Shown here: positions 14,911 through 64,000 of the stretch, one piece after another
Position numbering within the stretch: the first letter of the stretch is position 1
Layout: each line of letters starts with the position of its first letter
Assembly: GCA_035221665.1 (NCBI GenBank)
Contig: CM069151.1
Location: forward strand, 37,820,001 to 37,884,000
Direction of reading: 5' to 3'
From: Okamejei kenojei
Taxonomy: Eukaryota
DNA: 64,000 nt
Translations under genes and position numbers: made by a program
Notes under the pieces: model-generated
Seen by the model: the letters and a program-made list of their open reading frames with translations, nothing else
Told to the model about the DNA's origin: nothing
Database searches by the model: none

Positions 14911-17244
14911 GTGAAACCATTGTGCCTAAGAAAATGGAAATACCCTTGCAAAACTGTACTCTGCTTAGAACACAGGGTGGGGCTGTGAAAACAGTTCACC
15001 AAGAGACTCCACAACAAAAAGGAGAAAGTGAGCTGGTGCATGTACAGGTGAACTGGAGGACGCTAACACATTTAGCAATGTCATTGAAGGCCACATAGCA
15101 ACCAGGAAATCGTCTGTGATGCATTTGCATCTAAATAAGTCGTGCAATGAATGATGTCGCCACACATGTGACCTAAACATTCTACCTTCCAAATTGTAGT
15201 CATTGTTGTGTCCTGTAAGAAAATACATACATGTTCTGAAAGTGTCTCGTTAAGATAATTAGGGATAAACCTACCACCTCTGGGCATCCCCAAACATGCT
15301 TCACCTTCTTCATCCCACAGAAATATTTTAATAAACTGTGTCGTTTTTGTTCTCTCTTTCCAGATTGAGGTGTGCATGGCCAGGTTTGGCAGTGATTCTG
15401 AGAAGAGAGCAACAAAGGATCTCTATACTCTGCCACATTTCCAACCCAACCATTGGATTGGGTCACTATGCTGAAGCTATGGATGTTTATTACGGGCATA
15501 TTGTTTTCTAGGTTTGCATCGATCCTCATGGAAGGTAAAAGATACTCTCGGCTTCACTTAGAATGTTTTAGAAAAGAACATAAATGAAGAAATCACCTGC
15601 ATTTATACAAAGACACGAGGAACTGTTGATGCTGGAATCCTGAGCAAAACACAAAGTGCTGGAGGAACTCAGCGGGTCAGGAAGCATCTGTGGAGGGAAT
15701 GGACGGGTGATGTTTTGGGTTGGGACCTTTCCAATATGTCATCAGTCCATTCCCTCCATTGATGCTGCCTGATTTAGTAAGCTCCTCCAGCACTTTGCCT
15801 TTTGATCTGCATTAATATAGGGCTTGGCTTGGCTTATACAGATGTGGCTTTTGTAACTCCTGAGCCATTGAATTGTATTTTCTATTGTAATGCTGAAAAT
15901 ACAGCAATCAATTTGTGTAGAATAATGTACATGAACAATGAAAACATGACCAAATCTCCTGTTCTGTGAAGATGTTTGAAGGATAAACATTATCCAGGAT
16001 TGTGGAGGAAATCCCTTCCTTTTTTTCAAACATGCAACAATATTTTCCACCTGGAGTAGAAGAAAGGGACAACTTTTAATATCTATATTGACATTTTTGA
16101 ATTCTGGAGGGATAGTTAATGTTACAAATGCAACAAAGATTGAAATTATGGAGTTGTATGAGAATGAGGAAACAGCCCCTCTCGGCCCTTCCAGGTGCCG
16201 AATAGTCCCAACTGCACTCATCCATTCCCTTCACGATTTTAAAGCTCATGTCAATTCTCATGTCATGACTCTTGTTTGAATCTTCCCTACCCTCAATTCT
16301 CCACGTCTAACCTTCACCTTCAAAAGTCCCCCCTTATTCCAAAGAATAAAGACCTAACTTTCTCTGTAACATAGTTGCTGGAACGGGACATGAAACTAGG
16401 CGAAAACCCAGAATTGGTTCTTACCATGCAGAATAAAGCCCATAACCGTCCTATTTTGACATCTCCCACACAGACATGGTCACATTACCATCACCCATTG
16501 AATCCATCTTGCTATCATGTGACTGCCACATAATTGCCCTTTGTTAATTTCTGTCTTATTTCTACACTAGAGGACCTGCAGACTTATCCACTTTTAATAT
16601 TTTTCAAAAGTTCTTTCCTCTCTTTTGAATCTATACTAGAGTTCAATATCCTTCTCCTTGGTGATACCGAAGAAAATAAATTGTCCATTCAGATTTGTTA
16701 TCCTTTTGGTCCAAAAGTTATCCTTTTGTTAATGAAGCTTAGCCAGCCTTCCTATTGAGTTTTCACTCTTCTACCTAATTTCTTCATTAAGGAATGTTTC
16801 CTGACCTCTCTCTTGAATGACCTGGGTCTTATTTAAGGGTTATGTCCCCTTCTCCAACTCTCATCCACCAGCAGAAATGTTTATTTCTCTCTACCCTTCA
16901 AATTCTTTCAAAATCTTGGAATTTCAGATAGACTATCAATGAACTCTCTATCTTCTGGGGTTACCAAGCCTGTTTTATGAAATAATATAAACTTTGTAGT
17001 TTTGACATTACATCAATAAATTCTTAAGGTGTTGTGCAATGTAGATATGAAATTCTCCCCCCCTGCCTGTTTAGATCCCCCAGTGGATCATTGCCCAAAT
17101 TAATTTCAGCAAATCAGCAAACGAATCATTGATTTCCTGGTAAAGATGGGACACATTTTTACTCATCTCCACATTATGCAATTATCACAAATGTTACAAT
17201 AGTTTATCAAGGATTGCAAGACTAATGGTAATCTCCTCCAGTTA

Positions 17245-18845
17245 CAGTGGCTTGCAAATGTTTTCATACCCCTTGAACTTTTCCACATTTTGTCACGTTA
17301 CAACCACAAACGTAAATGTATTTTATTGGGATTTTATGTGATAGACCAACACAAAGTGGCGCATAATTGTGAAGTGGAAGGAAAATGATACATGGTTTTC
17401 AAATTTCTTTACAAATAAAAAACTGAAAAGTGTGGCGTGCAAAAGTATCTAGCCCCCTTTACTCTGATACCCTTAAATAAAATCCAGTGCAACCAATTGC
17501 CTTCAGAAGTCACCTAATTAGTAAATAGAGTCCACTTGTGTGTAATCTAATCTCAGTATAAATACAGCTGTTCTGTGAAGGCCTCAGAGGTTTGTTAGAG
17601 AACATTAGTGAACAAACAACATCATGAAACCCAAGGAACACACCAGACAGGTCAGGGATAAAGTTGTGGAGAAGTTTAAAGCAGGGTTAGGTTATAAAAT
17701 AATATCCCAAGCTTTGAACATCTCACGGAGCACTGTTCAATCCATCATCCGAAAATGGAAAGAGTATGGCACAACTGCAATTCTACCAAGACATGGCCGT
17801 CCACCTAAACTGACAGGCCGGGCAAGGAGAGCATTGATCAGAGAAGCAGCCAAGAGGCGCATGGTAACTCTGGAGGAGCTGCAGAGATCCACAGCTCAGG
17901 TGGGAGAATCTGTCCACAGGACAACTATTAGTTGTGCACTCCACAAATCGGGCCTTTATGGAAGAGTGGCAAGAAAAAAGCCATTGTTGAAACAAAGCCA
18001 TAAGAAGTCCTGTTTGCAGTTTGCCACAAGCCATGTGGGGAACACTGCAAACATGTGGAGGAAGGTGCTCTGGTCTGATGAGACCAAAATTGAAGTTTTT
18101 GGCCTAAATGCAAAACACTATGTGTGGCGGAAAACTAACACTGCACATCATCCTGAACACACCAACCCCACTGTGAAACATGGTGGTGGCAGCATCATGC
18201 TGTGGGGATGCTTTTCTTCAGCAGGGACAGGGAAGCTGGTCAGAGTTGATGGGAAGATGGATGGAGCCAAATACAGGGCAATCTTGGAAGAAAACCTGTT
18301 AGAGTCTGCAAAAGACTTGAGACTGGGGCAGAGGTTCACCTTCCAGCTGGACAACGACTCGAAACATTCAGCCAAAGCTACAATGGAATGGTTTAGATCA
18401 AAGCATATTCATGTGTTAGAATGGCCCAGTCAAAGTCCAGACCTAAATCCAATTGAGAATCTCTGACAAGACTTGAAAATTGCTGTTCACAGACGCTCTC
18501 CATCCAATCTGACTGAGCTTGAGCTATTTTGCAAAGAAGAATGGGCATCAGTAGATGTGCAAAGCTGGTAGAGACATACCCCAAAAGACTTGCAGCTGTA
18601 ATTGCAGCGAAAGGTGGTTCTACAAAGTATTGACTCAGGGGGGCTGAATACTTTTGCACGCCACACTTTTCAGTTTTTTATTTGTAATAAAATTTGGAAA
18701 CTATGTATCATTTTCCTTCACAATTTTGCACCACTTTGTGTTGGTCTATCACTTAAAATCCCAATAAAATACATTTACGTTTGTGGTTGTAACGTGACAA
18801 AATGTGGAAAAGTTCAAGGGTTATGAAAACTTTTGCAAGCCACTG
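17245..18845 (+). mobile_element. Tc1/mariner DNA transposon (IR/DR type), full length
   Basis: TA|CAGTGGCTTGCAAA...TTTGCAAGCCACTG|TA; about 210-bp inverted repeats, each with an inner direct repeat; TA target-site duplication. Confidence 0.96.
17624..18633 (+). pseudogene. Tc1 DD34E transposase, inactivated
   Basis: HTH region, GRPPK, WSDE, LDND and SPDLNPIE motifs. TGA replaces the conserved Trp at 18464-18466, a frameshift follows near 18550, and the remnant ends ...AKGGSTKY*. Confidence 0.93.
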
Positions 18846-18998
18846 TACTATTCAATGCCAATCACTGTCCATTAAGCCCACTCAAATCATCGACCACAAC
18901 ACATCACCTATCACCGGCCACTAATCTCTCCCAGCAGGTAGGGATCAAATGGCTGAATGCTGTAAAGTGAATTGTGAATTTATTGTCATTTACACCAG

Positions 18999-19207: not shown

Positions 19208-22200
19208 GTACAGATGGGGGATGGATGGTGGACCTGGGAATCCCGGCACGGGAGATTTGAAGTTTTGAGAGTAACTGATCCATTCAAATTATGCAGGCAA
19301 ATCATTGGTGAAGGTAGAAAATCTTGGAAGTATACAATAGCAACTAATACATGGACCAGTTAAAGAAAGGTGTCATTGTTGGTATTGTTTTATTTTTTTC
19401 CCCTTCCATGTGATTGGATTGAAATCTATGAATTCCTTGACCACAGTAAAAGTATTGAGTGTAGTTCACATGGACTGCAACAGTTTAAGTAGCCACCTTC
19501 TCAACAATATTTAATAATGGGGTGTAAATGGTGGCCTTGCCGGCAGTGCCCAAATCTCATGAATAAACTTAAAAGATATTGTGTGAGCAATGTGAGATTA
19601 CACAAGGCCTGGCCTCCAGGGGCATCATAACTCCTGATAGGGACCATTGGTCATGATTTTGAGAAAGGGACACAAGCAATTTGTACTCACAGCCTCTGGA
19701 ACAGTGAATATGTTGGTTTCTGAATGTGAATACTCCTCTTACCCTAATATTCAGCATGTTGTGTTTCTTTTAACAGCTACTGACCACACCTCTTCTCTTT
19801 GCCACGATAACATGCACTGATATTATTTCTTCAGCTCAGGTACATGGATGTCTGCGAACTTATATTAAGCCTATTTTTCTGTATTTATGCCTGTTGCTTT
19901 GATAAATGGAATGAGATTTGGTGTGATTGGTGTGGTGTGATTAAGTTATAAAATACGATTGTCATTTTCTAATTTGACCTAGATGAGAAGAACAATTTAT
20001 GTCCCTGTCTTGCAAACCAATGATGTTTTGTATCAATAATACCAGTTAAGACCTGTAACTATTGGCTGCGAAATAGACATTTTATGCAGATACCACTCCT
20101 TGATTAATTGGTTGAAAATAGTGAAGTTCTAGAAACTGGTTACCAATTTATAAATACATTAACCTAATTGGAACCCAGTGGAAATGTTTAACATGTTCCA
20201 CATTAATTTGAATTCTGCTACACCTGATGTATGAAACTCAAGTGCTGGGAATCTGCTTGTCATAAGGATCAAGTAATCTACGGTACACAAAAAGCTGGAG
20301 AAACTCAGCGGGTGCAGCAGCATCTAAGGAGCGAAGGAGATAGGCGACGTTTCGGGTCGAGACCCTTCTTCAGGAATGTACATCAACTTTTCTGCTCTGT
20401 GTACATCTCTTTCAAGCAACATCTGTTATTTCCCCTTTTCTCTCGTGTCATAAATACACCTATGTTGAGCACTTTATCTACTCCTGACAGTGGTAAGTTT
20501 CGCTTTTTGACTGCACTTTGGATAAAGGATTGTCTCCTGACTTTCACTTCGATTGATCTTTCATTCCAGTGTCCCCAGCATGTGGTTTTTTTTTCTCACT
20601 TCTCAGAAGTTGCTTTCCCTTGTGACAGCAATGCACTCCTTTGAATTAATAGTAGCTCTATTAGAACAAATTGATGGCATGACTACCTTATAGAATACAG
20701 AATATGGGTTCACTTGAAGCAACCAAAGATATTATTGTAAAGATAGGACAATTAGATAAACGGTGCGTCTGTGGCTGCGACTCGCCTGCAGTCTCTCTTC
20801 CTTCTTTGCCTTATCGTTAATGTTAGATTATGCAATAATCTATTTTTAGTTGTGTATTATGTGGTGGGGGGGAACTTTATTTTATCTCTTTCTTCAACGG
20901 GGATGTGACTATTTGTCCATGTAATATATTCGTTCGCACTGCGGCCTAACATCGAGGAGCTGGGTGGCCTCCAGCTGGGATCGACCTTGAGGGCTCCAGT
21001 CGCAGAGCCTGTGGACTCACGGAGCTGGCTGGCTTTCGGAGGTTGTGGTGGTGTTGCGATTGCGGCTGTGATTCAACTTTCGGAGGCCTAGCAGCTCGCA
21101 GGTCCCTGGTTGGCGACCGACTTTTCGAGAGCTTTAGCAACAGCAGCTTCGTCCGCCCCGAATCGCAAGGCTGGAATCGGCCCATTCGCAGGACCTTTCC
21201 TCGCCCGGCGCAGTCCAGCCACGAGATCTTCCATCGCCCGGCGGGGGCTAGAATATCGGGAGCTTCGATCGCCTTGACGCAGCAGTTTGACTGCCTGACC
21301 ATGGGAGAAGAAGCAAGGAAGAGATAAGACTTTTTTTTACCTTCCTGGAGGAGATTCACTGTGATGGATGTTTCTGTTAAATTTATGTAATTGTGTGTTT
21401 TGTTTGCTTTTTATTGTTATGACTGTATGGAAACGACATTTCGTTCAAATTTTTTTTTGAATGACAAATAAATTAAATTCAATGAGGAAATGTTTCTTTA
21501 ATGCATAATGTCAATACATTCTGGATGCAGTGACTGACAGTGTAAGGGACACAGGAACTGGATAAGCATTTAAAACTAAAATATTGATAGTGTTTCTGAG
21601 AAAACTAGTGAAATGCAGTTGATTAGTTAGAGCCTCTAATGAAGCAGCACCGCCACAATGGGCTGAATGGCCAACTTCTGAGGTGTATGATTTCCTGTTG
21701 TTTCCATTGCCAGTGCACTTCTTACTTCCTCTTCTTCCTGTATTTCATTCTACAACTTTCCTTCTCCTCCTTTTGTAACTTCTTACCCATTACTACATTG
21801 TGCACGTCTGCATTTTGTCCACAAACCTACTACTTCTTTCATCACCTGTCTGACTTTCTTTTATAATTAATTAAATTAGTTTCTACCACTTTATCGGGTA
21901 GGATGTTTCCAATCCCATCAATTCCCAACTCAAACTAAAGGAAAAGAGGAAGATGGGTAGAATAGCAGTGAAATTCATTCTGAAGCTGGTATTTTATTTA
22001 TTGAGTCAATAAATGTTTCTATATTTTTGAAGATTCATCACAGGTTAATGGTGCAAGTCCTTAACGAAAATGATAACTTACCGGTTTTCCTGAAAGAAAG
22101 TGTTCAACCACTCAACATTAGTGAGGTGAGGAACTGACCTTCTGTCTTATAAAACCTGTTTTATTGTTCGTTAAAAAAGAAAGCACTTGCATTTATAGCA

Positions 22201-25200
22201 TGCCTTTACAATTTCATAACATCCCAAAGTGCTTTATAGCTAATGTGCTACGTATTGAAAAGTAGCCATTGCACTGCATAATTTCAACAGACAATTAATG
22301 TGTATCAAAATCCTACAACCAATATGTTTTTTGAAGAACAATTATTTTAATTTGTCAACCTGCGAGGGCTGTAGGGCACTCTTCAGAGACTGAGAACACA
22401 GTTTGATCTAACTCTCTAGTGTAGCAATGAGGGAGTGTCAACTTTCAGGTAAAAGTTAAATCAAAGATTTGTTCACCTACTCAGCTGGATGTAAAAGATG
22501 CTGCAACAATATTAGAAGAGGGGTGAGAGAGTTTTCCCTGGTGTCATGGCCAATACTGATCTCTCAATGAAAGTACATGAAATAATCTGGTCATTATCAC
22601 ATTGCACAATATATTTCCAACATTACAGATGAATATGTTTCCAAAAGTTTTTTTTGCCATCTATGCACTTGGGGTTGTGAAAGACAGTACATAAATGCAT
22701 ATTTATCTTTGAAATCAAAAGAAAATTACAAATGCTGGAAATCTAAAATAAAACCATAAATTGCTGGAAATATTCAGCAGCCCAAATATTTGGGAAGATA
22801 AATAGAGTTAATACTTCAAGTCTGCTGAATATTTCCAGTATTTTCTATTTTTATTTATGTTTTTTATCTTTCAAGCCTATGGCATTAAGTTTCACTTCAG
22901 AATAAACTACTACTTAAAAATTGTCATTTCAATTTCCCAAAGCTTTGAAAGCATCTTTAAACTTTTTTTTTTGCCCCTCCTTCCCCCTCTGACAGCTGAC
23001 ACCTATTGACGAGATTCTCTTCAGGTTGCAGGCTGATGATAAGGATGGTGATGGCCTCATCTACATGGTTGACAGAGCATCGGTAGGTAAAGGTTTGCTC
23101 CAGTTGAGACTGACACAACTACCCAGCAAAGTAGCAAAATAGGTCCCTATATGGGAATAGTAGTTGTTTAGCATTAATAGGCACAGAATGCTATTTGGCC
23201 CATCGCATATGCTCGCACTCTGAAGGAGTCACCAATTAGCACCATTCCCCTGACCTTTCTTGTGTTCCCTTTTAAACTATTTATTTTATTTTATTTTGGA
23301 ACATTTTATTTTATGTTGAGGAGTAGGAATGCTTCCTTCAATTCTACAGATTCACCAGCATACGATCACCATCCATCCCTTCAGACTGGTCTACTTGCTT
23401 TGACTATAGTCAGATTTTAACAATTTTCTTTGTTCTTGATCTCTCTGAATGCTTTGGAAATTGGCTCAAATTAGTGTCTGTTACTAATGAAGGTTTGAAA
23501 GCAAGGATGTGAGGCAGGATGAATACAGTTTTGCTTCAGATCACAGGTGCAGAGTATGCAATAGAATAGAAAGTGTTCAATCGTCAGCAGGTTCACTATT
23601 GTTTGAAAGCTGAACTTCAAATAGATCAAAGCTTGTTTTAGAAACTCAGCGGGTGAGGCAGCATCTATGGAGCGAAGGCATGGGTGATGTTTTAGGTCGA
23701 GACCCTTCTTCACCCGACCCGACCCGAAACATCACTCATTCCATCGCTCCATAGATGTTGCCTCACCCGCTGAGTTTCTCGAGCATTTTTGTCTACCTTC
23801 AATTATTCCAGCATCTGCAGTTCCTTCTTACAGCTTGTTTTAGAATGTGCAGAGAATAACGGAAGTTGGATCTTGTCACTTTGAGACAAAATACAGGTGC
23901 AGAGAGGGCCAATTTCAAGGCCCAACACACAATGCTGAAAGTACTGCTGAAAGATATCTAGCCTACTGCTGGAAAAGCCCATTTTACGTATCCCGCAAAT
24001 ATTTAACTTAATTTGCAGAGTGTAAAGCAGAATCCACATTTGCTCCTGTCTATTTGATGGCCTGTTGTTACTGAAAGGATTGTTCCAACAAGATAATAAT
24101 TTCAATAAATTGCTGTTGAGGAGTAGGAATGCTTCCTTCAATTCTACAGATTCACCAGCATATGATCACCATCCATCCCTTCAGACTGGAAGGGAAAAAA
24201 AGGCCACAATAATCTCAAAGCAGAAGAGACAAAGGTTGCAATGGAAAAGGAGAACAAGGTCCAGTTCAGAGGCCAGCAGGTTGGGAATCTAATGGGTAGG
24301 TTTTCTCTGTCTCCCTGCAATGCAGGTGGACAACTGATGTCTTTCATTTTATCAATGTCAAACTTTGTGTTGTAGAAAGATGCAGAATTCTTCAAGATTG
24401 ACCTACCAAACAGTGGGAACATCCTTCTGGCCCAACGCCTCGATTATGAGAGCAAGAAAGAGTTGGATCTGATTGTTTATGCTATGGTATGAAAACTCAT
24501 TTACCCCATGTAATCTTTGTTCCAATGCGATTTTGCCCGGAGTTTGCTAATGTAGAGTGAACACAACTAGTGGATTGAGCTCTGTAGTTTCTTCCCGAAA
24601 ACCTCCTGTAATTCCTAAGAATGTACCTCCTGACTTAGTTGTACTAACTATCTTAGCACTGAAAATGTTTCTTTACCCTCCTAATAATATCTTTCACACA
24701 GGAAATGAATACCGAGGAGAAATACAACACAACAGCAAAAGTGACCATTAGTGTGTTGGATGGGGATGACCAGTATCCAAGATTTCTTCCATGCAAGTTT
24801 GTGTTACATGGGAAGACCAGAGTCTGCGTCAATCCAACCTACACAGGAAATGTCACAGAAGCAAAGCTACCAGTAAGGGGGAATTCATGCAAATGGGGAA
24901 AGGGTCACAATGAATGTTGAAATTTTGAATTCGCGCCACAAGACTTCCATTTTAACCAACCATGATCTTAGCACAGTTTCCTTTATCGTTTAGAGATACA
25001 GCGTGGAAATAGACCCTTCAGCCCACCGAGTCTGTGCCAACCAGCGATCCCCAATATATTAGCACACTACAAACTAGGGACAATTTACAATTTTTACTGA
25101 AGCCAAGTAACCTAAAAATCTCTATGTCTTTGGAGTGTGGAAGGAATCTGTGGAGTGTGGAGAAAACCCATTAGGGCATGGGGGGGAAACGTACAAATTC

Positions 25201-28200
25201 TGTGCATAAAGCACCTGTAATCAGAATCGAACCTGGATTTCTGGTGCAGTAAGGCAGCAACTCTACTGCTGCGTCACCATGCTGCCCCTCAATATTCCTC
25301 CTCAACATATTCCTCCTCAATACTCGCATGAGGTTTACTGAATTTCATGTTCATAATCTCCCAGTTGGTGCTATCAGCAGAACAATCATAAGAATAAAAA
25401 TTACGCACAACTTCTTAACTTTCTTTGAAGGCTTATTTATTAGCTAACATCTTTTTGATTAAATCAATTTCTAATAATAGGCAATCATCCAATTGGATAA
25501 CAAGGAGCCTGTTTATTTTCCAACTCCTGTGAGAAGGTAGGAGAGGGAATGTTTCATGACCACATTTCAAGTGACTAACTGCAGTTCTGCAGTGCAGTGG
25601 AGTGGTTTATGGCAGGTCTTGTACTGAGATCTCCAGGAGTAGAGTCTTACTGGAGTAAAGACCTCAAGTAGAAATGTCTATATGAAGTTTCTATCACCAA
25701 GGTAGTCTACTGCTGCAGATAGTTGGGTTGCTGTGGTCTGATATAAGGTGGTGCTACAGAAGCCCATCAACAACAACAAATCTCTTTTTTTTTTAAACCC
25801 ATTAAGAAAGCATCAATTCAAAAAGGTGTCTTATTAAGAGAAAGGAAGTATTGTTAGTTGTATTGTATTATTGAAGTATTTCCAGCTATATTTCCATGGT
25901 CCATTAAAATCCATTACAACTATAAATGATTTGTAAATGTATACTCCCAGATCCCCATTGCTCCACAAATTAACTTTTTTTTAAACATTTTCCAAATAAT
26001 ATGATCTATTTTTCTGATCTAAACACACAATGTATGATGACTTTCCAAAACATTAATGGATGGGGGCAGGAGGGGATTGGGAGGGGGGGAGGAGAGGTGT
26101 TTGCAGTTAGCAGTGCCATCTTTCAGAACAAATATTAAACCAAAGTGCTGTGTACTCCCTTGGTGAACTCAATAGTTCTATGGCATTATTTCAAAGAAGA
26201 GCAGGGGATTTATCACTACTTTGATTCATATATCTCTCTCAATATTGACATGCAGCATGTGGGAGGTTGCTGCTCAAAACTATGCTATTTTGTGTAATGG
26301 CAATTATGACCTTCAAATATTATTTAGTAAGCAGATTTTGGAACATTGCAGTTATAAAAAGAGTTCTGTAAATGAAATCGAATGTTTATTCTTATCTTGC
26401 ATAAGACATACAATCTCATTCAGAGCCAGGGGAAGGATGGGTATGTGAACTGGGCAATGCAACTCAGATGCAATACAAGCTGCAGTTGCAACGATGGATT
26501 TAAGATAAAGGTGTTGGAAGCCAGCAGAGGCAGGTTACCTCTCGCATACATGCTGGAGTTCGCCGAACAAAAAGGTCATAAAATGGAAAGTGTCCAATTC
26601 CGATTATTGATTGGTTGCATGTTGACTAAAGTCTTATCAGCAAGACAAGTGTTCCCTATCTTTGCTGACGTCAATCTTTTTGTCTGTTACAGTATCATGC
26701 TCTCCAGCTCTCCCCAGGACCCTTATTAGCAGAAGATGGAGACAAGGGACTTCAGACCCAAATTGCATATTCAATTCTCACAGGTCTGAACTTTAAAAGA
26801 CAATCAAATCAGTCTAAGTGACTACTCTTTTTGCTTGAAATAAATCTGAAAATCATGTCATAGTTTGGAAGGCAGGAAGTATAAGAGGGAATGCTATAAA
26901 TGCACGCGTTTGGGTGAGGATGGCACGAGGTACAACAGAGGTGTGCAGGGGTGAAGTCAGGAGGAGAGCTCAAGTGGTTACAGCTGAATGTAAAGCTGTG
27001 ATAGCATTGGGTCGGTGAAAGAGCTTGGATCTGGGAATGCGAACACTTGGATCGGACATCAGTGGTCCAATCTCAGCGGGTGTGCTCAGGTCTAATCTCA
27101 GCGCGTGTTTAATGAGTTCTGGCATTAGGAGAATTTGGGTAAGATCTCAATGAGTCAGCTGGGTCTAGCAAAAAAAGAAAGAGCTGGAGTCTGGCCTCTG
27201 TTCAGCAAAGAGAGTTTAGGTCCAGTCTGAAGGGTAACTGAGATTCAACAATGGGAGAAATGGGGTCCAGTCTTGGTGGTTGAAATTGGGACTAGCAGGA
27301 AAGACTGGCCACACACAGTACATCTAGTGGAACAGGACCAGTTAGACTTGTCTAGTTCTAACTGTTCCTTCTATTCTTCAGGTGATGATAATGGTAGATT
27401 TGAAGTCAACAATATTACTGGAGCAATGATGATGAGGTGGCCAGTTCGGAGCTTGATGAAGACCCCCTTGTTCTCTTTGACAGTCATGGTAAAGAAAATA
27501 TAATTCATTATTATTTCTGGCATTAAACAAAATCAATGTGACAATGAACAATGAGCCTTTTTTGCAGTTGTTTGGCTTGAACACTGGCACAGTGCTGTAG
27601 TAACTCAACAGGTCTGGTAGCATCCCTGGTGAACATGGATAGGTGATTTTTTTGGGTTGTGACGTTTCTTTAGGTGATGATAATTTTTGGTCGGTTCTTT
27701 GGATGATATAACCATATAACCATATAACAATTACAGCACGGAAACAGGCCCTCTCGGCCCTTCCAGTCCGTGCCGACCATTTGTTTTCCCCTAGTCCCTT
27801 CTACCTGCACTCAGACCATACCCCTCCATTCCCTTCACGTCCATATACCTATCCACTTTACTTTTAAATGTTAAAATCGATCCTGCCTCCACCACTTCTG
27901 CTGGAAGCTCATTCCACACAGCCACCACCCTCTGAGTAAAGAAGTTCCCCCTCACGTTACCCCTAAACCTCTGTCCCTTAATTCTCATGTCATGCCCTCT
28001 TGTTTGAATCTTCCCTACCCTCAATGGGAAAAACGTATCCCCGTCAACTCTGTCTATCCCTTTCATCATTTTATATGGTTATATATACATTTTTTATATG
28101 ATGATAATTTTTAGTCGGTTGAGGGCGCTGCGAGTCGGCTGCCCTGCCAGCAGCATGTTCGTTATTTTGCCTTTCTTTGTTTTTTTTAAGTGTGTTCAAA

Positions 28201-31200
28201 TGTTTGTTTTAGTGGTATGTCTTGTGAGGGGGGTTGTGGACAGGGGTGGGGGGGGGGAGTAAAGGGGGAAACCGTTCTTCAGTCACTTCCTCGACAGAGA
28301 TGCAATTTTTTCGTGTCGCTTCTCCACCTCCGTCGCGGGCCTAACAGCTTGGATTGCAGTGGCCTTTCCTGGAGTAGGGCCCAGAGCTTCAGCAGTGGGC
28401 GCAGCGTGGGCTTTTCCATTATGGAGGGGGGCGGGCCTTTGCCGGGGGTCGCCAGAAAGGAGTGCTCCAATCGCTGGCCTGGTGACTTTGGCATCATGGG
28501 GCTGTGGTCTGCAGAGCTTCTAGCCACGGGCATTGACTTACCATCCGGAGTCTGGGATCCCTTGCCGCAGAACAGCTCCGACCGCCGACCTGCGGCCTAT
28601 AACATCCTGAAGCCGCGGTCTCCGGTAGGAAAGTGGCCGATCCGGGCGCTCCAGCTGCGGAGTGTGTTCGACCGTCCCGACGTCGGTGTTTTGATCATCC
28701 CTATCAGAGGGCCTATACATCTGGCCGTCCGTAGTGGCAACTATGGAGGGTTAATGGCCCCGACCACGGATGGAACGTGGAGGAGGATTGATTGAACTTT
28801 GTTGCCTTCCACCACAGTGAGGAATGCTGTGGTGGATGTATTGTGTTGAATTATATTCTGTATTGTGTATTTTTTTAAGTGTTTCGCTGCCTGGCAAATT
28901 CATTGTGTCATCGTTGGTGCATGTGATGAATAAATTTGACTTTGTCTGACTCACTGAGTTATTCCAGCGCTTTGTGTAATTTTGAGGCACTAAATCGTCA
29001 CTGGCTATTCCAGCACAAAAGAAGACAGTTTGTGGTTCTGGAAGCCAATCATCTCAGGTCCAGGACATCTCTGCAGGGCAGGCGAGAAACCTGACACAAT
29101 GGATCTGTAGATGCTTTATCAATGCGCTTCCATCCATCATAAGATCAGAAGTGAGAATGCCTGTTGATTTCTGCATAAATTAAATTCTATATGCAACTTC
29201 TCAGATAATGTAGCAGACTATTCCAGCACTATCAGACCATTCCAACAGCATCCTGAGTGGGGCACCACTGAGTCTTAATCAAACCAAACACATAAATATT
29301 GAGGTTTCAATGGCCAGACATGATCAAGGACAAAGCCATGTTACCCATTCACCTCCTTAAACATTCATTCCCTCCACTGACGTAATGTGGCTGAAATGTG
29401 TGCAATCCATAAAATGCATTGGAATTTCTTGCCGAAGTTTCTTAAACAGCTTATTTTGTGATGTACAACTAAAATAAAGGCAGTATGTGCATAGGAATGC
29501 CACAACTGGAAGGATTTCTCCCCAAGCCACACATTATCCTGACTTACAAATATATTGTCCTTCCTTCATCATAACTGGACCAAAATCCTGGAACTCCACA
29601 AGCACTGCAGCAGTGCCCAAGGGCAATTAGAGATGGGCAATAAATCCTGGCCTCACCAAACATTCCCACATCAAAGAAACACACAAGACAATTCTTTCTG
29701 TTGTACCGACAGGAAATCTGAACAGAGGACAATGATTCTCAGGAGTCTAAAGAAACCAATTGTCCTTTTACTTTTTCATGGTGATCTTCCTTAATCCCTG
29801 ACATCTTCAGCACAACAACAGGTGCTCTGCTAGGCCACACCTCAAGATGGTGCTTGGACACAAAAGCATATCCAAATGCATTGTGAAATACTGTCCATTG
29901 TATCCTCTTTGCACATTTTCTCTTTGTATGATCAATTAATTGATTACTAACCATTGTCCCTTTCTCGTACACCCACAGTTTGGTTTCACATCCAGTAAAA
30001 ACCTTGTTTAAGCAGCCCTCGTTTAAGGTGCAATGATCAGTGGTTGATATCTCACCACAGGAACAATTCAATCAAGAATAACTGTCAGAAATCACTGAGT
30101 AGCAATTAGATGCAGGAACAACGATTCCTATTTACTTTGCCTAAGATTTCTTGCTTTGAAGAGAGGTTTGTTAAATGTATCCAATGTTGTTAGACCACAC
30201 ATTGGACATAACTTTGACCATTGTTCTTTCTGAAAAAAATATAAAGAATATCTGCAGAAAGTGCAAATTAGAATTATATTAATGGTACCAGATATAAAGA
30301 TTAAAATTAACAGAATAGAATAATAAAGCTTATCTATATATGGTGTTCCAACTATAAGATGGCTACTCAAGTCAGGAACAATGCAGCATAAACAGAGGCT
30401 TGGACAATTTGTGCAAAATTATCTATTTCCGAGCTACACATTCTATGTAAAGGTCAACAGACCCAAGGATCAAGGCTGCAAGTTCCCCATTGAGTATTAC
30501 AGCATGGAAACAGGCCCTTCGGCCCAACTTGAACATGCCAACCAAGATGCCCAATACACGCCAGTCCAAGCAGCCCATATTTGGCTCATATCCTTGTAAA
30601 CCTTTTCTATCCATGTAGCTGTCCAAATGTATTCTAAATGTTGTTGTAGTAGCTGCCTCAACTACCTCCTCTGGCAGCTCATTCCATATACCCAACATCC
30701 TCTGCATGAAAAAGCTGCCCCTCGGGTTCCTTTTAAATCTTTTCCCTTTCATGTTAAACCTTTCATGTGGATCTTGATTCCTCTGTTCTGGATAAAATAA
30801 TCTGTGCATTCATCCAATGTATTCCCCTTGGGATTCGATGTACTATATCCTTTCACTATATACATTCATAATAAAAAGAGAAAATGCTAGATGCACTCAG
30901 CAGGCCAGGCAGCATCTGTTAGTCTGGCCGAAATGATTGAGTGTGAACCTAAGAAACATAGGTAATATAGTAAAGAGTAAGTGGAGGCTGTAAGTAACAA
31001 GAGTGACAGAACCTCCACAACTTTACATTAATGTTTTTTTCCTTTCCAGGCCTCCCAAGTAGATGATCCTACAAAGTACACATTGACAACAGTGCTAATT
31101 CGTGTTTTGGCCCAGAATCACTATCGGCCACGGTTTAATACCACCAAGTATGAGGGATTTGTTCAGGAGCAAACAAACCCATTTGCTGTGGTAGTTACTT

Positions 31201-44319: not shown

Positions 44320-44692
44320 TTACACTTCCTGATGGGTGAACGGAGCACGATTAAAATTCACTTCCACTAGCCGGAAGGCATGCAACAAAGCAGCTATTTG
44401 CATAATCAGTCTTCTGATGATGTCGATTAAAGGGTTCAAGAGGTTTCTTATGCCAGTGAAAATATTCAATTGGAATATCATGATGGGTTGCAGCAGGCTG
44501 TTGAACAAAGTCGCCAGCAGTGGCTTCAGCACATGGTCTCCAATTGCTGTCAAGAGTCCAGCCACTAGGATTTCGATGAACGATCGACTTAAGAAATTCA
44601 CCAATTCAATCAAAAACAAAGTGACCACATTCATCAGGATCCTTACCACCGCAAACAGCTCTCTCCAACAATGCCGAATGACATCATTAGAC
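44320..44692 (-). CDS. minus-strand gene, terminal exon (SNDVIRHCWRELF...FTHQEV)
   Basis: tttttcag|G TCT AAT; ORF 44320-44709; hydrophobic helices. Confidence 0.85.
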
Positions 44693-50600: not shown

Positions 50601-53600
50601 ATGATTGAAAAAGAAAATGGTGAACATTGCCATTTGGTGTAGTGCAAGGAGTTGAGGTAAAAGATTGTAGTAGAATGGAAGATGATTTACTTTGAATTCA
50701 ATTAGGTGTCCACCAGATTGAGAATATGGGATTTTAATAATATGAAAAGAGAAAAGTGTTTAATTTGGTAATACCAACATCCATTCGCTTTCATAATCGG
50801 AGGTGCATTACCTCTGTTGAAGACACTCCAGCCTCAGCCTCAGTTTTCTCTTTGGATAAAACTCGAACAAGCTGGTGGTTGGTCCGAGAGTCCTCCATGG
50901 AGGGCTTGTTGGTGGATGTTTGGCTTGATTTGTGCTGGTTCCTGAGGTGGTTCATGTTCTTCTTTAAGGTTTCTAAATAGAATATATTTTTTGACACGAG
51001 AATCTAAGCTAAGGATCAGTGATTGTAAAACGTCCCTATATTCAGTCCAAATATTTTTGGGTTGAGAAATACCAAATTTATTTCAGATACAGAAACATCT
51101 TTTAGTGATTGAGGCAACATAGACCAGGTATCATTTTCCAAAATTCACCCTTCTCTTAATGCTATTTTGAGTACCTTTCCCTGATGTAGTAAACACACAA
51201 AAAATTCAAGTGAATTCAAGATGGCTTTTCAATTTATTTGTTTAGTCAAATGAGTATGCAAAATAATGTTTTTCAAATAAATTTACCTTCATTTTTATTT
51301 ATATGCATTACGAGAATTAGCAATAAAAATACCATCAGCGTTTTGGAAAGAAAATGCAAGTACCAAATTAAGAATATCAAGAAGTTGCTGAATGTCTCAA
51401 CTGGGTTCACATGCAGATGGAGTTCAATATGCAGTTATATTTTGCTCCATTATTATGCTATGGTATTTATATCAAGATTTCATTATCTTTTAGAACTAAT
51501 TTGTTTTATTAAATCTGCCTCCCAAAAACAATCTCCCGAAAATACTGAATGAGTACAACATTTCTATTAGTGACACAGGGGCCTGCAGGGTTGCAGCCCA
51601 ATACAGTGATTATCCCTTTACCTTCACAGATGCTACTTGACCCACTGAGTTCTGTCCGCAGTTTATTTTTGCTCAACATTTCTACCGGTTACCATTTTAA
51701 TCACATCAATTCACTCTTGTTTGTCATAATAGCTAATTAGAGAATATAGACTAATCCCTTAACAACTACTTTGTCAACGGAAAGCAGAACAACATTAATA
51801 ATGGCAGTAAAATACTGCAGCTGCAGGAAGGGTGATTGCTGTCTAATACCGCACTGCGTAGAAAGATGTTCAATTTTAATAAATTGATTTAGATAAATAC
51901 AAATGACATATGCTGATTTGACATTAGTAAAAGTTTCAGATTTCCATAGGTGGGGGTGGGTGGGGTGCGGAGGAGGGGGGGATTGGAAGGAGTTTCTTCT
52001 CCTTAACAATTTATTGTATAATATACTAATAGTCCAGATTAAGGGTTTTGACACAAATCATCAGCTGTCCATTTCCTTTCACAGATACTGTCTATTCCAC
52101 TGAGTTCCTGAGGCAATTTGATTTTTGTTTGGTTATGTATTCTGATTTAATTGACAAGAGCAATATTGAACTCGCTCGAAGTAGATAAGCTAAACTTTAA
52201 GGTCTCATGAAAGTTGTTCCCGGCTTGAACTCCAGGGGCCACTTTGGAGCAAATTCTAGTCCAGCTTTACAATGATGCAGGTACTAAATGAGAAAATATC
52301 AAAATGAAAATCTTAGCCAAAACTAATTTTAAGATTTAAAATGGTGAATCACTACTGAAGACTCAACTGAGAATTATTACACAACTGCTATTTTCCTCAC
52401 CTTTAATGCTCCCTTTATTATTTTTCTGTTCCTCTATTACAGCTTGGTTTTTCTTCTTCTGGTTGTCTCGTTCATAAAGAGAGAAGGTTGGTTGTGTCTC
52501 GCTTGATGAATCACTCCATCCAGGATAGCCTGGCAAAAGAAAGCAACCACTGCTTTTATTATTTTAGATGATCAAATCAAAATAGTCTGCAAATGTTGCT
52601 AACCCGCATGTAGTCTAAAATTATGTTCATTTGCCACAGATTTCATATTCATATTTTCTCATGACATGCAAGTCCATCGAGTCACTGCTGACTTTCAGAG
52701 CAATCCCATTAATTATATTGTTCAAGAAGGAATTTTTTTTTCTTCGGAGGGAGGAGGGCCTGAAGAAGGGTTTCGGCCTGAAACGTTGCCTATTTCCTTC
52801 GCTCCATAGATGCTGCCTCACCCGCTGAGTTTCTCCAGTACTTTTGTCTACCCATTAATTATATTCTGCCAGTTATTTCCTTCTCATGAACTAGTCCATT
52901 GATTCCTCCAATTCACCTACTACCCACCGACCATAAGGATAATTTAAAGTAGCCAATGAATCTCCCAACCAGCACATCTTTGAGAGGGAAGTTGGTACAC
53001 TCATGGAAACCCACAGGATCGCTGGAAAACACCCAAATTCCACGCAGGTAGCACCAGAACTCATGACCAAATCTCGTTGACTGGAGCTGTGAGGAAGCAA
53101 CAAATCAACAAACCTGTAGCCTCAATCTTCTACCCGTCCTGTCTCCCAGGCCGCCCCTCACACAACTATATTATTCACCGCTTACGATCTTATCTCATTC
53201 TGAAGTTGTATAAACTCTTCGGTTCAAATACCAGGAACACATGTTAAGAGATTAGAAAATTATATAGATGCCATTCCACAAATCATTAAACTTAATTTAA
53301 AAACTGTATCAAGGAAAGTATGGAAGAAAATAATAGTAATACAGAGGGAACTGTATGGATCTCCAGAGAGAATGGAATGGGAGAATATTACAAGATGATG
53401 GACTTGAGATTAATCAAAAATGTTCTAAATTTTGTTGGGATGGGCATTTTTATTGCTCAATAATCTCATGTTTCAACTTAACAAAAAATGTATTCCTGCA
53501 ATGCACTTACTTGACTGAATCATTGGATCTAGTTCTGCGGGTCTGTTTTTGGAACCTGAAGATTTATGGGGAATGTCCAAATTTTTATCATATTTTTTTA

Positions 53601-56600: not shown

Positions 56601-59600
56601 ACATTTGTAGCAGGCACAACAACTGCGTTCTCTGTACAATATTCAGAAGCAACTTATAGTTAACATTTTTTCTTGAGTCAGAGAAGGGCAAGGGTAACAA
56701 TGTGATTTGTTAAGTTTCTTCAGAAGTAACAGAATACATAAGTATGCATTATGAAACCAATTTGTCATCTCATTGGGTTCAAGGATGGCCATTTCCAATT
56801 CAGAACTGTGGGTTCCTGATAATGTCTTTGTCAGACTCAAGGATTATGCCTTCCCTGTGACAGAGGGTGTTTAATTGAGAAGCTGATAGGTAATTTGGGA
56901 AGTGATATAATATTTCCGCCATCCATGCTGAAATTCTTTGTGTCGGTTGCAGTGAATCGAGATTCTCAACATCATCCTGCATGGTCTGGGCAGTCATCAT
57001 CTTAGGATTTCTTTGAGTCAGTGAGAACGTTACAACTTTTCAAAGATACTTTGAGAATATCCACAATTCATCTATTTTCCCAATTGGACAATATCTGGAT
57101 GGAACTATTAACAGAATGTCTGTTTTGAGAGTCTCATGTTAGGAATGTGAACAAAATGGCTTGCATATCATGCAGAAACAAGGAACTGCAGATGCTGGTT
57201 TATACCATAGATTAACACAAAGTGTTGGAGTAACTCAGCGGGTTAAGCATCATCTCTGGAGGAAAAAGATATGTGACGTCCAGAAGGTCCTGACCTGACT
57301 TTGTACTTTGTATCTATCTTTGGTTTGTCTATTATATTTGTTGGAGTGTAATTGGGGGATGTTGGCCTGTGAGATGGTGTTAATGTTACTTTGCTTATCT
57401 TGTCAGTAGATTTGTAGGATTTTTACAGAGACAACATTTGTGCTATTGCTTTAACACTATGAGGTGCATGTTGTTGCTTGCTCATCACTCAGGGGTACAC
57501 AGGAGAACAGAGATTATTGCTGCCTGGTGAACCACGAGCTATGTGTTCGGTTTAAGGTCTAGATCTTCAAACATTTGTTCCCCCAGATAGTTGGCTGGTG
57601 CACAGAAAGCAAGGGTTAATTTCATTATTAAACAGGACTGAAGTATTGAAAGATACTGTATGATAGTTTCCCGGACTCTTGGTGTGGACTCTTGGTGTAT
57701 GTGCAGGGCAGTGTTGTATAAACATTGACTGCAGGAAGAAAGATCTGCTCTCAACCCACACTGAGGTTGTTGACAGAGGGCCTATGTTTTATGGATGTCT
57801 TGTATACTTCACTGAAGATCTAAAAATGATTTCTCATTCCTTGGCCATGGGAGTGAGTGGGTAGCTGAGGAGGGTTCAGTGAATTTTCCTGTCGCAGATA
57901 GAGGGAGATCATTCTCCAACTGCATTCACCTTCTTGTTTACCAGTCATGCAGATGGTCATGATTACATCTCTGATACACCCAGGCACACCCTTCTCTTCC
58001 CAGATATGGGAGACAAGGTTGGGAACATGCGATATTTTCTTTGACATGTTCTAGAATTTCAACAGGTCAACCATTTACTCTCAAGCAAATGGAGTTTATG
58101 TCCTCGTTTATGCGGACAACAAGATCTACAAGAACAGAGTCACAATTGAGGAGTTTTCCTTTCAGTATACATTGGCCCCATTCCCAGTCTTGATAAATCT
58201 ACCTCCGTTTTTGGCACATAATGAGTGTTGAACCGCAATGACCTCGGCAGTACTGAAGAACCTGTGCATTTTATATTTTTTGGTGCTATTCTATCTGGTT
58301 CATTTTTATCCATTTTCAGGTTTAAATCCAAGAACGCCTGCAGATAAGAGGGCTAGAGGAATCAAAGGGTATGGGGAGAAGGCAGGAACGGGGTACTGAT
58401 TGTGGATGATCGGCCATGGTCACATTGAATGGCATTGCTGGCTCGAAGGGCCGGATGGCCTACTCCTGCACCTATTGTCTATGTATCTATGTATATCCTT
58501 TTCAATCTCATCTAATGAGTCTTGGTGCTTTCTGGTTAGAAGTCAGTATCTCTTCACCAGTCTAATTAGGGTCTTCAGGATGGTCCAGGTACTGTGGACA
58601 GTGTGTGGCTCCTGTTGGTTATGGGTTGTCAAGTTGCTGTCCAAGAGGAACTATCATTCCAGACCTTCAACACTGATTTTCTTACAAAAATAGTTTCTAT
58701 AGTTGCTTTTGTTTTGGGACCAGTCCGAGGGAAATAATAGATGATTAGATGGTAGCCCATCAAACAGACATCAACATCTGTAAAGGCATCTGATTCAAAC
58801 ATCCTTCTGATCGCTTGCTCAAACACTGGTATAATCTAACAGGGGTCATTTCCTGGGTAGAGCATGTTGCCATGTGGTTCTCTTCTTATCTCTGGCAAAC
58901 CAAGATTTTGGCTTTGTCAATCAAGTGTCCTTAGCATTTTGTGCTGAGGAAAACTCTATTTGGATTATCTTTTCCTAGAAATTCCTTACCAATCATGTCT
59001 TACTAGAGGATTGTATCTATTTCAAACTTGGTAATGACGTTGTCCAAGAATATCAGTTAGCCTAACTCTGGGATGCAAGTTAGGGTTTGGAAGGTTGCAG
59101 AAAACTTTTCCAAGATCATAACAGCCTCACACACACAAATGGGATTTTTTGGCTGATGACTGCAGTATGCACTTCCTACTTCAGAGTGATCTGATGGGGC
59201 TTGAATATTGCACATATACAACAGAGAGTGTCATTGAGGCACCACATCAACTTGTCTTGACAGAAAACTTAATCTCATGATAACATTATTTAATTTCCAG
59301 TTTGCCCTTGTTTTTCTGGCTATTTCAAACCACTTTCCAGGCTTTCCCTCTAAACTATATTTAAAGACGACAGAGCCTCACATCAGTGGTAGGGATGCTA
59401 TGGAGAGGATTCTTAGCAACAGGATTTACTCATATTGGGAATAAAATGGGCAAATTAGTGACAGTCTGTGTGGTTTTGTCCATGGCAGGTCCTTTCCCCT
59501 GCAACCGCTGGATATGTAACACCTGTGCCTTCGCCTTCTCTCTCATTTGAGTTATCATTATCTGTACTAATTTTTTTTTAGCCCATCTAAATATCACATA

Positions 59601-62055: not shown

Positions 62056-62421
62056 CTTTGGGTCTTCAGGAAGAGGGTGAACAAGCTTTGATTATTAGGT
62101 TTATCTATCAAAGGAGAAGGAGGTGGAGCGAAAAAAGTCTCTGAACACAGGTTAGGCACAACTGGTTTTCGAGGAGCACTTCAACTTCTTGATGGGTGAG
62201 TAGGGCGTAAATCAGCAGATAATGGCAACATATAAAACTTGTCCGGTGGGAACTCCAGTACACACCAGGAGTGGTGCAGACTAGTGTTTACACAATTGGT
62301 TGTTCCACAATCCTTTTTTGTAGTGATGTTCAGCTATACTCTGGAGCCTGAAGAAGTGCCACGTTAATGAAGGAGGGTGGAGTCCTTTCCTTCAAACCCA
62401 TAGCACTGAGTGACTTAGCAT
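62056..62421 (-). pseudogene. upstream exon of the minus-strand gene, with a nonsense codon and an apparent frameshift (or a non-coding 5' exon)
   Basis: atatttcag| ... CAA AG|gtaaga. The phase-2 end matches the next exon, but there is an in-frame TGA at 62181-62183 and further stops upstream. Confidence 0.45.
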
Positions 62422-64000
62422 CTGAAATATGGCAGGCAATAGAGATTATTAAAAGTATTATAATGCAAATTCATGGTATTGACCATAAATTTATTCTCTT
62501 GGTCTACCATAACTTGTACTTTAAGGTTTGATTGCTCTTATGATTCACAAAGAGCTGAGTTTGGAGCTTTATCGGGATCCTTGAAGCACCACAAGAACAA
62601 ATCTTGCACCACTGCTGTAGAAAATGCAGATGTCCTATATGGTGAAGTGGAGAACACCATTGACTTCCAAATGCTACAACGCGCAGCAAACCAGTTACTT
62701 TAAAAATCCTAGCTTCAGAACTCATTGCCTTCTCAGGCAGGCTTCTGACAAAATCTTTTGCAACAGCCTCTAGCAGTATAAGTTTATTATTTCTTGGTGT
62801 ACCCGGGCATGTTTTCACCTCTAACACTTGTCCTGCAGCTCAGCTCACGTAATCATCCAGTCTGACAATAAACAAATACCCAAGGTAATGAGACTTTTAT
62901 CAAAATAGTAGTGCATATCACCCAAAGCTAATGTAGATTTCAGAATCTGCATCCGATTGTACTAATTTGTCCAAGTTGTGCAAATGGTCTTTTAAATTGC
63001 AGTTCATCAAAAGTGCTTAGACATTATTTTTACTTCATTTTTCAGGATGTTGATTGGAGGGATTAGCTAAAGGCCAGCATTAATTGTCCATCTCTAAATG
63101 TCTTTAAGAAAGTATTAATGACCTACTTTCTGTAATTGTCACAGACTCTCTGAATGTTGCAGGATTTTGATCTAGGTTCAGCAAAAGAATTGTAATATAT
63201 TTATAAGTCAAGATGCTGTACTAATTGGAGTAGATCCAAAAAATGGTGGTGTTCCCCTGTGACTCTCTTGTTCGCATAGCTCAGGTTTGAAAGCAACTGC
63301 CTGAGTAGTCTAGGTAAGTAACTGCATACATTTTGTAAATGACACACATTTTATCCACAATGCAAGGGTGGTGGAGGGAATGAATCTTTAATAAAGCAGA
63401 AGAGGTACCAATGGCTTTGTCCCGGATGTTCTCAAATATTGTTGGAAGTGCCTTCATCCAGGCATTAGGGAAGTATTCCATTACATTTTTGACGTGTTTT
63501 GCAGATGGTGAAGAGCCTCAGGGATCTGGGGTATCAGGGGGCAAAACTAATACCTAACATAATTTGCCTTTGTATTTATGTGGCAGGTTATGGTCAATGG
63601 CAGTTGCTGGGGTATTGATAATATGGATCGTAGCAATGGTGAAAAAGTTCAATTTCTGTAACTCCTGTCACTGTTCGCTTATTTGTCCAGGCCTTACTGC
63701 AAACAGGCATGCACTGCTTTACTTTAGAACTTACATATGAAATTGAACATCATGCAAATATCAGCAAGCTTATAATGGAAGGAATGTTATTGATGAGATG
63801 CAGCTGAAGTTGGTTAAGCTTCCTAGCCTTAGAAACTTATGTTCCAATGATTGACCTCCAGCAACCACAACTACCAGTCTGAAGAAGGGTCTCGACTCCA
63901 ACCTCACCCATTCCTTCTCTCCAGAGAATCTACCTGTCCCTCTGAGTTACTCCAGCTTTCTGTGTCTATCTTCGGTTTAAACCAGCATCTGTAGATCCTT

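What the first reader, a model, noticed from the sequence alone, without database searches (positions are those of the whole stretch)
15611..63999. Abundant palindromic, MITE-looking elements made of two Penelope termini fused at the ribozyme core
Seen: at least 8 short inserts (about 750, 5900, 15620-15800, 23640-23830, 27590/28950, 45670-45840, 57180-57320, plus single arms at 20285, 52760 and 63880) consist of the terminal sequence of the Penelope element. They often occur as two inverted arms joined in or near the CTGAAGA...GAAAC motif. At 23700-23735 the minus core runs directly into a plus core (cccgacccgacccgaaacatca). Single arms at 20373, 52760 and 63879 begin within a few bases of CTGAAGA. 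Inference: a retrozyme-like non-autonomous family whose ends are set at the ribozyme and which is mobilised by the Penelope RT. Its hairpins would form dsRNA in the introns of both genes.
Basis: partly seen in the sequence, partly recalled or inferred. Interest (0 to 1): 0.7.

Follow-up and report, generated by a model that had tools for sequence, protein, structure and literature searches.

The report
Twin-primed Penelope stubs, not MITEs
These small hairpins are short end pieces of a known jumping gene (a Penelope-like element), each flanked by its own long target duplication; they were likely made afresh at each insertion by copying one RNA from two start points, and many stop just before the built-in ribozyme rather than at its cut site, probably where the RNA begins.

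Summary
The arms are real: they are the terminal ~130 nt of an endonuclease-bearing Penelope-like element (Neptune-type linker), roughly a million arms genome-wide by extrapolation. They are not a MITE or retrozyme family. Two-armed copies have 9-18 bp target duplications (34 of 41), nearly all junctions differ (38 of 39), and one arm carries the 35-nt tail while the other stops at a second fixed site (45 of 57). Both arms share source variants. Inner ends pile up 25-35 nt 5' of the predicted hammerhead cut (217 of 365 arms reaching it), not at the cut (37 of 514, like its neighbour). Best reading: both nicked target strands prime reverse transcription on one uncut RNA at two internal sites, and the cDNAs join by microhomology. 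The pile-up is probably the RNA's 5' end: the two arms' fates are coupled, and an Inr/MTE/DPE-like promoter sits exactly there, overlapping the ribozyme. The architecture is published; I found no paper with this mechanism. This scan reported double priming and the pile-up before, on other DNA of this and other genomes.

The parts
23630..23845 (.). Best two-armed insert: TSD 23630-23643, minus arm 23640-23713 (-27..+46, tail-less), plus arm 23720-23830 (-14..+97, tailed), TSD 23832-23845
   Evidence: perfect 14-bp duplication; folds at -106 kcal/mol
15597..15817 (.). Older two-armed insert: tailed minus arm 15618-15732, tail-less plus arm 15731-15813, 11-bp TSD with 1 mismatch
45659..45865 (.). 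Decayed two-armed insert: tail-less minus arm 45670-45763 (to -34), weak tailed plus arm 45752-45836; 15-bp TSD, 12 matches
739..830 (.). Very decayed remnant, probably two arms joined downstream of the core; no TSD found
   Evidence: E 0.045; second arm by eye only
5883..6005 (-). Single tailed arm, inner end near -24; possible 7-bp TSD
20274..20373 (-). Single tail-less arm, 5' end at -28
27578..27671 (-). Old single tail-less arm (-26..+69)
28940..29004 (+). Weak arm fragment (+23..+86), 1.3 kb from the previous one
   Evidence: E 0.022
34074..34388 (+). Longer 5'-truncated copy (-213..+100) inside a LINE; used as coordinate reference
34255..34288 (+). Inr-like TCAGTC (A at 34257 = -31), minimal hammerhead core 34260-34287 with palindromic ACGT helix III, predicted cut 34287|34288; MTE-like 34274-34283 and DPE-like 34284-34288
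   Evidence: sequence; consensus from PMC5580651; scan; Rfam finds nothing at gathering score
47503..47912 (-). Inverted, tailed pseudo-LTR of the long copy
47938..50292 (+). Decayed, 5'-truncated element body: RT, CX4CXXC linker, GIY-YIG with CCHH, 3' arm ending tail-less near +67
   Evidence: relatives L288 and L297 hit RVT_1 (E 2.5e-6) and GIY-YIG (E 3.4e-4), both just under Pfam's cut-off
52758..52856 (+). Single tail-less arm starting at CTGAAGA
57179..57295 (-). Old tailed arm (-19..+96); possible decayed partner to about 57320
63873..64000 (+). Single arm starting near -34, runs off the window

Best explanation
Each hairpin is a TSD-flanked, extremely short insertion of a Penelope-like element's end, likely built afresh when both strands of a 12-16 bp staggered cut prime reverse transcription on one uncut element RNA at two fixed internal sites, and many arms probably end where that RNA begins, just 5' of the ribozyme. 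Shown: the TSDs, the two fixed outer ends (+100 and about +61..+67), one tail per insert, arm kinship, junction diversity and the inner pile-up at -35..-25. Inferred: a dimeric RT-endonuclease primes at both sites; one RT can displace the other's cDNA, so the arms overlap; the two cDNA ends join by microhomology, often at the ribozyme's own small palindromes. If one side fails, a single tailed or tail-less arm results. Inferred with less certainty (about 0.55-0.6): the pile-up is the 5' end of a short-start RNA class transcribed from an Inr/MTE/DPE-like promoter (+1 = A at -31), so the stubs resemble strong-stop cDNA, while longer copies come from read-through tandem RNAs. The ribozyme mostly does not cut the template.
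For: TSD of 9-18 bp (mode 13-15) in 34 of 41 two-armed and 48 of 91 total copies; control 0.7. Pairs not selected on their tail: 45 tailed+tail-less, 10 both tail-less, 2 both tailed of 57 classifiable (p 4e-6). The tail-less site is also the 3' end of 245 of 447 unselected single arms. Target-to-arm microhomology at the tail-less end averages 1.87 nt against 0.35, and 28 of 31 ends lie at +59..+67. Arms of one insert match in family in 127 of 133 pairs; in family A they share minor variants at 46 of 60 sites (null 16%) and 13 rare variants (null 2.0, max 8). The tail-less arm reaches further in 57, the tailed in 35, equal in 17 of 109. Inner ends: 217 of 365 at -35..-25, in both main families; a 10-30-fold coverage step at the same place in contigs of three other organisms. 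Coupling: of 27 pairs with both arms reaching -24, 20 stop/stop, 5 pass/pass, 2 mixed (p 4e-5); in template-jump chimeras, 0 of 10 second passes cross the site after a first stop there, against 6 of 10 after a first pass (p 0.011). Inr 6/6, MTE 8/10 and DPE 4/5 at exact spacing from A(-31): best site in 4 of 4 copies with an intact or near-intact motif (18.4, 18.4, 14.3, 10.2 bits; best site elsewhere 11.8). In vitro, the anole PLE extends both strands, starts at two internal sites bounding the tail, and uses uncut RNA (PMC11167929).
Against: No RNA-level support for the start site: the one raw-read run (another organism, polyA) shows no place where many molecules begin. No cap-type extra G: among 100 listed cores the non-reference base before GTCTG was G 10, T 7, C 6, and before AGTCTG A 8, G 7, T 5 (hand count). 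The promoter score is ad hoc, post hoc and uses Drosophila consensuses, and part of the MTE/DPE match follows from the ribozyme's conserved GAAA and GTC. The same spot is also a pyrimidine tract plus CAG, like a 3' splice site, and in D. virilis the start lies upstream of an intron that ends at helix I (PMC4209133, PMC2377424). An RNA-bound roadblock removed by the first RT would give the same coupling. Arm kinship could come from two identical pLTRs of a tandem RNA or from later gene conversion. A small excess of single arms starts at +2 (10 of 367; 5 are solitary inserts), so a few per cent may come from cleaved RNA.
Confidence: 0.68

Rival explanations
1. Double priming as above, but the inner pile-up is a roadblock inside a longer RNA (splicing factors on the pyrimidine tract and CAG, or the protein-bound ribozyme), not the RNA's 5' end.
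For: Pyrimidine tract plus CAG precedes the core in both families despite different upstream sequence. The D. virilis intron ends at the 5' end of helix I (PMC4209133). 148 of 365 arms pass the site. A removable block explains the coupling too.
Against: Ends peak at -32..-30, on the Inr A rather than at the exon's first base -29. No intron evidence: the spliced form has 2 unrelated genomic hits and no such joint was among the 10 RNA joints listed. The promoter composite is best at this base.
Confidence: 0.3
2. Fold-back: one cDNA (or an antisense template) self-primes at a small palindrome and copies itself, as proposed for rotifer Penelopes.
For: Explains arm kinship and palindromic junctions (1,173 exact symmetric junctions). 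Proposed in PMC3846280 (passages). 35 of 109 pairs have the tailed arm longer, as it predicts.
Against: In 57 of 109 the tail-less arm reaches further, which a snap-back from the tailed strand cannot give without later deletion. The tail-less end is the same site that ends 245 of 447 solo copies. Some inserts have only the tail on one side and a non-overlapping arm on the other (L065, L281, L290, L040, L363).
Confidence: 0.15
3. One reading: a non-autonomous retrozyme- or MITE-like family with ends set by ribozyme cleavage, amplified from palindromic masters.
For: Some junctions recur (107 and 1,173 exact matches). Minor +2 class. Retrozymes do derive from PLE ends (bioRxiv 2026.07.22.740005).
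Against: 38 of 39 junctions distinct. The 107-copy junction spans at least four sequence subfamilies among 20 viewed, tail on either side. Cut-site bin 37 of 514 against 29 of 477 next door, p 0.52. No tandem units, no fixed TSD or TIR.
Confidence: 0.05

Closest known systems
Endonuclease-positive Penelope-like elements, Neptune or Nematis type (PMC8557442, passages)
   Same: RT plus C-terminal GIY-YIG with CCHH, CX2-5CxxC linker, hammerhead in the pseudo-LTR, heavy 5' truncation, inverted 5' copy, optional 30-40 bp tail, variable TSD.
   Different: Here the commonest product is the ~130-nt end alone, at very high copy number, with a sharp inner end point that I did not find described.
Adineta Pen2a_Av inverted-pLTR insertions (PMC3846280, passages)
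   Same: Inverted pLTR, tail on one side, 8-10 bp TSD, palindromic inverted junctions.
   Different: Explained there by self-priming on an antisense template; the counts here favour priming from both target ends.
Anolis Poseidon PAc in vitro (PMC11167929, parts 1-2 of 4)
   Same: Two internal RT starts bounding the tail, both strands cut and extended, predicted dimer, uncut RNA as template.
   Different: That paper saw no difference in start site between strands; here two-armed inserts nearly always use one site per side, and ends show 1-2 nt microhomology.
L1 twin priming (recalled; not read)
   Same: Second primer on the other target strand gives a 5' inversion inside one TSD.
   Different: L1 inversion points vary and the parts do not overlap; here the second site is fixed and the arms usually overlap.
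Non-LTR retrozymes (bioRxiv 10.64898/2026.07.22.740005, parts 1-3 of 5) and minimal PLE hammerheads (PMC4209133, parts 1-2 of 4)
   Same: Type I minimal hammerhead with palindromic helix III, PLE origin; that paper also notes dual motifs 100-700 bp apart on opposite strands.
   Different: Retrozymes are head-to-tail tandems with an HHR in each unit; these are head-to-head or solo and do not end at the cut.

Membership tests
EN+ Penelope-like element | RT followed by GIY-YIG endonuclease with CCHH | tested here: met
   Window frame shows C-X2-C before YIGET and later histidines; RVT_1 E 2.5e-6 and GIY-YIG E 3.4e-4 in relatives, just under curated cut-offs
EN+ Penelope-like element | Pseudo-LTR in partial tandem running into the next ORF; inverted 5' copy; 30-40 bp tail | tested here: met
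   Tandem junction in L192, L195, L205; inverted pLTR 47503-47912; tail +67..+100
Neptune or Nematis clade | CX2-5CxxC linker between RT and EN | tested here: met
   C-X4-C-X2-C in the window and in L288, L297, L097; definition
Neptune or Nematis clade | Placement in the RT tree | not tested
   No reference PLE proteins on hand; Neptune and Nematis not separated
Minimal type I hammerhead of PLEs | CUGANGA, helix II, GAAA, palindromic minimal helix III, NUH | tested here: met
   Sequence; motif intact in 170 of 333 arms reaching -28; no Rfam hit
Minimal type I hammerhead of PLEs | Self-cleavage | not testable with these tools
   Needs a dimeric or protein-assisted assay
Non-LTR retrozyme | Head-to-tail tandem units each with an HHR | tested here: not met
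   Head-to-head pairs and solo arms; direct repeats are rare chimeras that include ORF sequence
Non-LTR retrozyme | Unit ends defined by ribozyme cleavage | tested here: not met
   37 of 514 at the cut against 217 of 365 at -35..-25
Non-LTR retrozyme | Circular RNA intermediate | tested here: inconclusive
   No back-joint among the RNA joints listed, one polyA run of another organism
MITE | Short fixed TSD (TA, TAA, TTAA or fixed 8-9 bp) | tested here: not met
   9-18 bp, variable sequence
MITE | Symmetric TIRs and uniform internal structure | tested here: not met
   Ends differ by the tail; 38 of 39 junctions distinct

The most novel reading that the evidence does not exclude
These stubs record the unsolved Penelope integration cycle: a dimeric RT-endonuclease makes a 12-16 bp staggered cut, primes both strands on one RNA at two fixed sites with strand displacement, and runs off a capped 5' end set by an Inr/MTE/DPE promoter written into the hammerhead core itself. 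The conserved, barely active ribozyme would then double as the element's core promoter, and the stubs would be strong-stop cDNAs that can jump back into the ORF start to build the partial tandems PLEs need.
Probability: 0.35. Interest if true: 0.75.

Novelty: new member of a known kind. Interest (0 to 1): 0.45.

Why it matters
How PLEs form inverted pseudo-LTRs, the one-sided tail and partial tandems is stated to be unresolved (PMC11167929, PMC8557442, PMC2377424), as is the role of their weak hammerheads. This genome gives base-level predictions that the existing in vitro system and one CAGE library can test: cut stagger, which start site each strand uses, and the RNA's first base. Repeat libraries may also mislabel such palindromes as MITEs. 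The elements themselves are an ordinary kind of repeat.

Tried and rejected
Rfam at gathering score: 0 matches. Run search: no RNA holder listed. The raw-read run gave no start or end pile-up, and A-to-I editing cannot be read from pooled multi-copy reads without matched DNA. Cap-derived extra G: not seen. Spliced-out intron form: 2 matches, neither an intron-less copy. Looking for full-length 5' ends through the pLTR-ORF junction mostly gave short chimeras, so it did not decide start site against roadblock directly. In some searches minus-strand loci were not re-oriented; only plus-strand rows were used. Host genes not named: Pfam gave a weak cadherin hit and nothing for the 578-aa and 135-aa ORFs; the PDB search was uninformative; the Atlas gave an unnamed cluster for the 135-aa ORF at low recognition. 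My first label, Poseidon, was dropped after the linker test. Paper searches showed no paper on two-site twin priming or on 5' ends at the hammerhead's edge; Arkhipova 2006 and Evgen'ev and Arkhipova 2005 were not read, and no supplements were seen (Fig. S2 of PMC11167929 may bear on 5' ends).
Full report
Setting. The window is G000:C21:37820001-37884000 of a 2.76-Gb genome; skate or ray is my recollection of the repeat, not a call result. Coordinates count from the predicted hammerhead cut (window 34287|34288): CTGAAGA starts at -28, the tailed end is +100.

Observation. Self-comparison and profile searches find arms at every listed place and several more. Three are clear two-armed inserts (15611, 23640, 45670), one is a decayed candidate (750), and the rest are single arms or fragments. 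The arms are the 3' end of the long copy at 47503-50292, which itself has an inverted tailed pseudo-LTR. Its RT, C-X4-C-X2-C linker and GIY-YIG place it with Neptune or Nematis PLEs as defined in PMC8557442; no tree was built. Exact 29-mers of two tailed ends occur 14,948 and 12,397 times. Twenty 10-kb stretches picked blind held 83 arms, 24 of them paired, which extrapolates to about a million arms and of order 100,000 hairpins.

Samples. I took 91 of the first 100 listed family A ends and 72 of the first 100 family B ends, chosen by the 3' end only, plus all other arms in 221 sequences (1.24 Mb, 950 arms). The 30 loci found with the palindrome as query were left out of all counts. For inner ends, 588 of 950 arms were scored; arms under 45 nt, under 84% identity or near a locus edge were dropped.

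Not a MITE. TSDs of 9-18 bp flank 34 of 41 two-armed and 48 of 91 family A copies; the shuffled control gives 0.7. The outer ends differ: of 77 pairs not selected on a tail, 57 could be classed, and 45 have one tailed and one tail-less arm, 10 two tail-less, 2 two tailed (p 4e-6).

Not one amplified family. 38 of 39 junctions are distinct. The window's junction type occurs 107 times exactly; among 20 viewed it spans at least four subfamilies, with the tail on the left in some (L329, L343) and on the right in most (read by eye). Recurrent junctions sit on the ribozyme's small palindromes; the symmetric one occurs 1,173 times.

Both ends look primed. The tail-less end falls at +59..+67 in 28 of 31 TSD-defined cases, with 1.87 nt of target-arm microhomology against 0.35, and the same site ends 245 of 447 unselected solo arms. 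At the tailed end the flank matches the RNA's continuation into the next ORF for 1.5 nt against 0.4, though the first base may simply belong to the element. Some inserts have only the tail on one side and a non-overlapping arm on the other. The tail-less arm reaches further in 57 pairs, the tailed in 35, equal in 17, against a plain snap-back. Arms match in family in 127 of 133 pairs and share minor and rare variants beyond permutation (family A 46 of 60 sites, 13 rare against 2.0; family B 48 of 128, 18 rare against 8.5, maximum 17). This fits the anole PLE, which cuts and extends both strands, starts at two internal sites bounding the tail and uses uncut RNA (PMC11167929). Displacement of one cDNA by the second RT is my inference.

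Inner ends. 217 of 365 arms that reach -25 end within -35..-25 (0.079 per nt, against 0.003-0.008 downstream of -14 and between -47 and -120); the cut-site bin holds 37 of 514, like its neighbour (29 of 477, p 0.52). Contigs of three other organisms show the same coverage step. Ten of 367 single arms start at +2, five of them solitary inserts, so a small cleaved-RNA class is possible.

Why there. The limit behaves as a property of the template. Of 121 pairs, 27 have both arms reaching -24: 20 both stop, 5 both pass, 2 are mixed (p 4e-5). Among 83 exact pLTR-to-ORF junction copies (70 fetched, 50 parsed, three rows corrected by hand), most are short chimeras in which one arm is joined to the ORF start at +115..+420 and a second arm follows; after a first stop at the site 0 of 10 second passes cross it, after a first pass 6 of 10 do (p 0.011). 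With consensuses from PMC5580651, A(-31) has Inr 6/6, MTE 8/10 and DPE 4/5 at exact spacing and is the top composite site in four copies; three other copies with the motif mutated or outside the slice gave no such peak. Against this: no extra G, no RNA start pile-up in one polyA run of another organism, a post hoc score partly implied by the ribozyme consensus, and a splice-acceptor-like tract at the same spot, as in D. virilis. I put the start site at about 0.55-0.6 and a bound roadblock at about 0.3.

dsRNA. The two best hairpins fold at -100 and -106 kcal/mol, and opposite-strand joints at the core occur in the polyA reads, so such hairpins are transcribed in a related organism. Introns and editing were not shown.

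What is known. Inverted 5' copy, optional tail, variable TSD and minimal hammerheads are published for PLEs (PMC8557442, PMC3846280, PMC4209133). My searches showed no paper giving two-site twin priming or this end point; two older reviews and all supplements were not seen. Earlier notes of this scan reached double priming and the pile-up on other DNA; they are not independent support. I did not see the coupling tests or the promoter geometry in the few lines shown of those notes.

Verdict. Interest 0.45.

Noticed in passing
L228-L297 (G000 loci): Short direct chimeras: arm, 15-320 nt of ORF start, second arm. They look like RT jumps and may show how partial tandems arise.
   Followed up: partly
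L192, L195-L214 (C393, C470, C305, C679, C1013, C747 and others): An amplified unit, mostly on small contigs, holding a tandem PLE in which CTGAAGA is replaced by a local inversion of the C-rich tract, destroying the ribozyme core; 89-96% alike, perhaps a large satellite or segmental repeat.
   Followed up: no
-180..-121: A second, weaker cluster of 5' ends (47 of 92 reaching it), near a donor-like CAG|GT at window 34152/34153; partly limited by reference length.
   Followed up: no
window 17612-18466: Tc1/mariner transposase remnant (HTH_Tnp_Tc3_2, DDE_3) with about 210-bp inverted repeats at 17243-17457 and 18639-18847.
   Followed up: no
window 33331-34570 and 54821-56060: LINE fragments (RVT_1 at 54821); the one at 33331 is interrupted by the PLE copy at 34074.
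   Followed up: no
window 39386-41122 (+) and 44320-44727 (-): A 578-aa acidic open frame and a 135-aa hydrophobic frame, neither with a Pfam family; the latter resembles an unnamed eukaryotic Atlas cluster (0.94, low recognition).
   Followed up: partly
L064, L072, L056, L111: Internal deletions in arms at short microhomologies; L064 removes exactly the ribozyme core between two GTC triplets.
   Followed up: no
window:34085-34170 in run X24: Reads upstream of the core are 2-3-fold strand-biased, while the terminal arm is symmetric.
   Followed up: no
L288:1131-2582, L170: The ORF's N-terminal part carries a variable 27-nt minisatellite (Pro/Asn-rich repeat).
   Followed up: no
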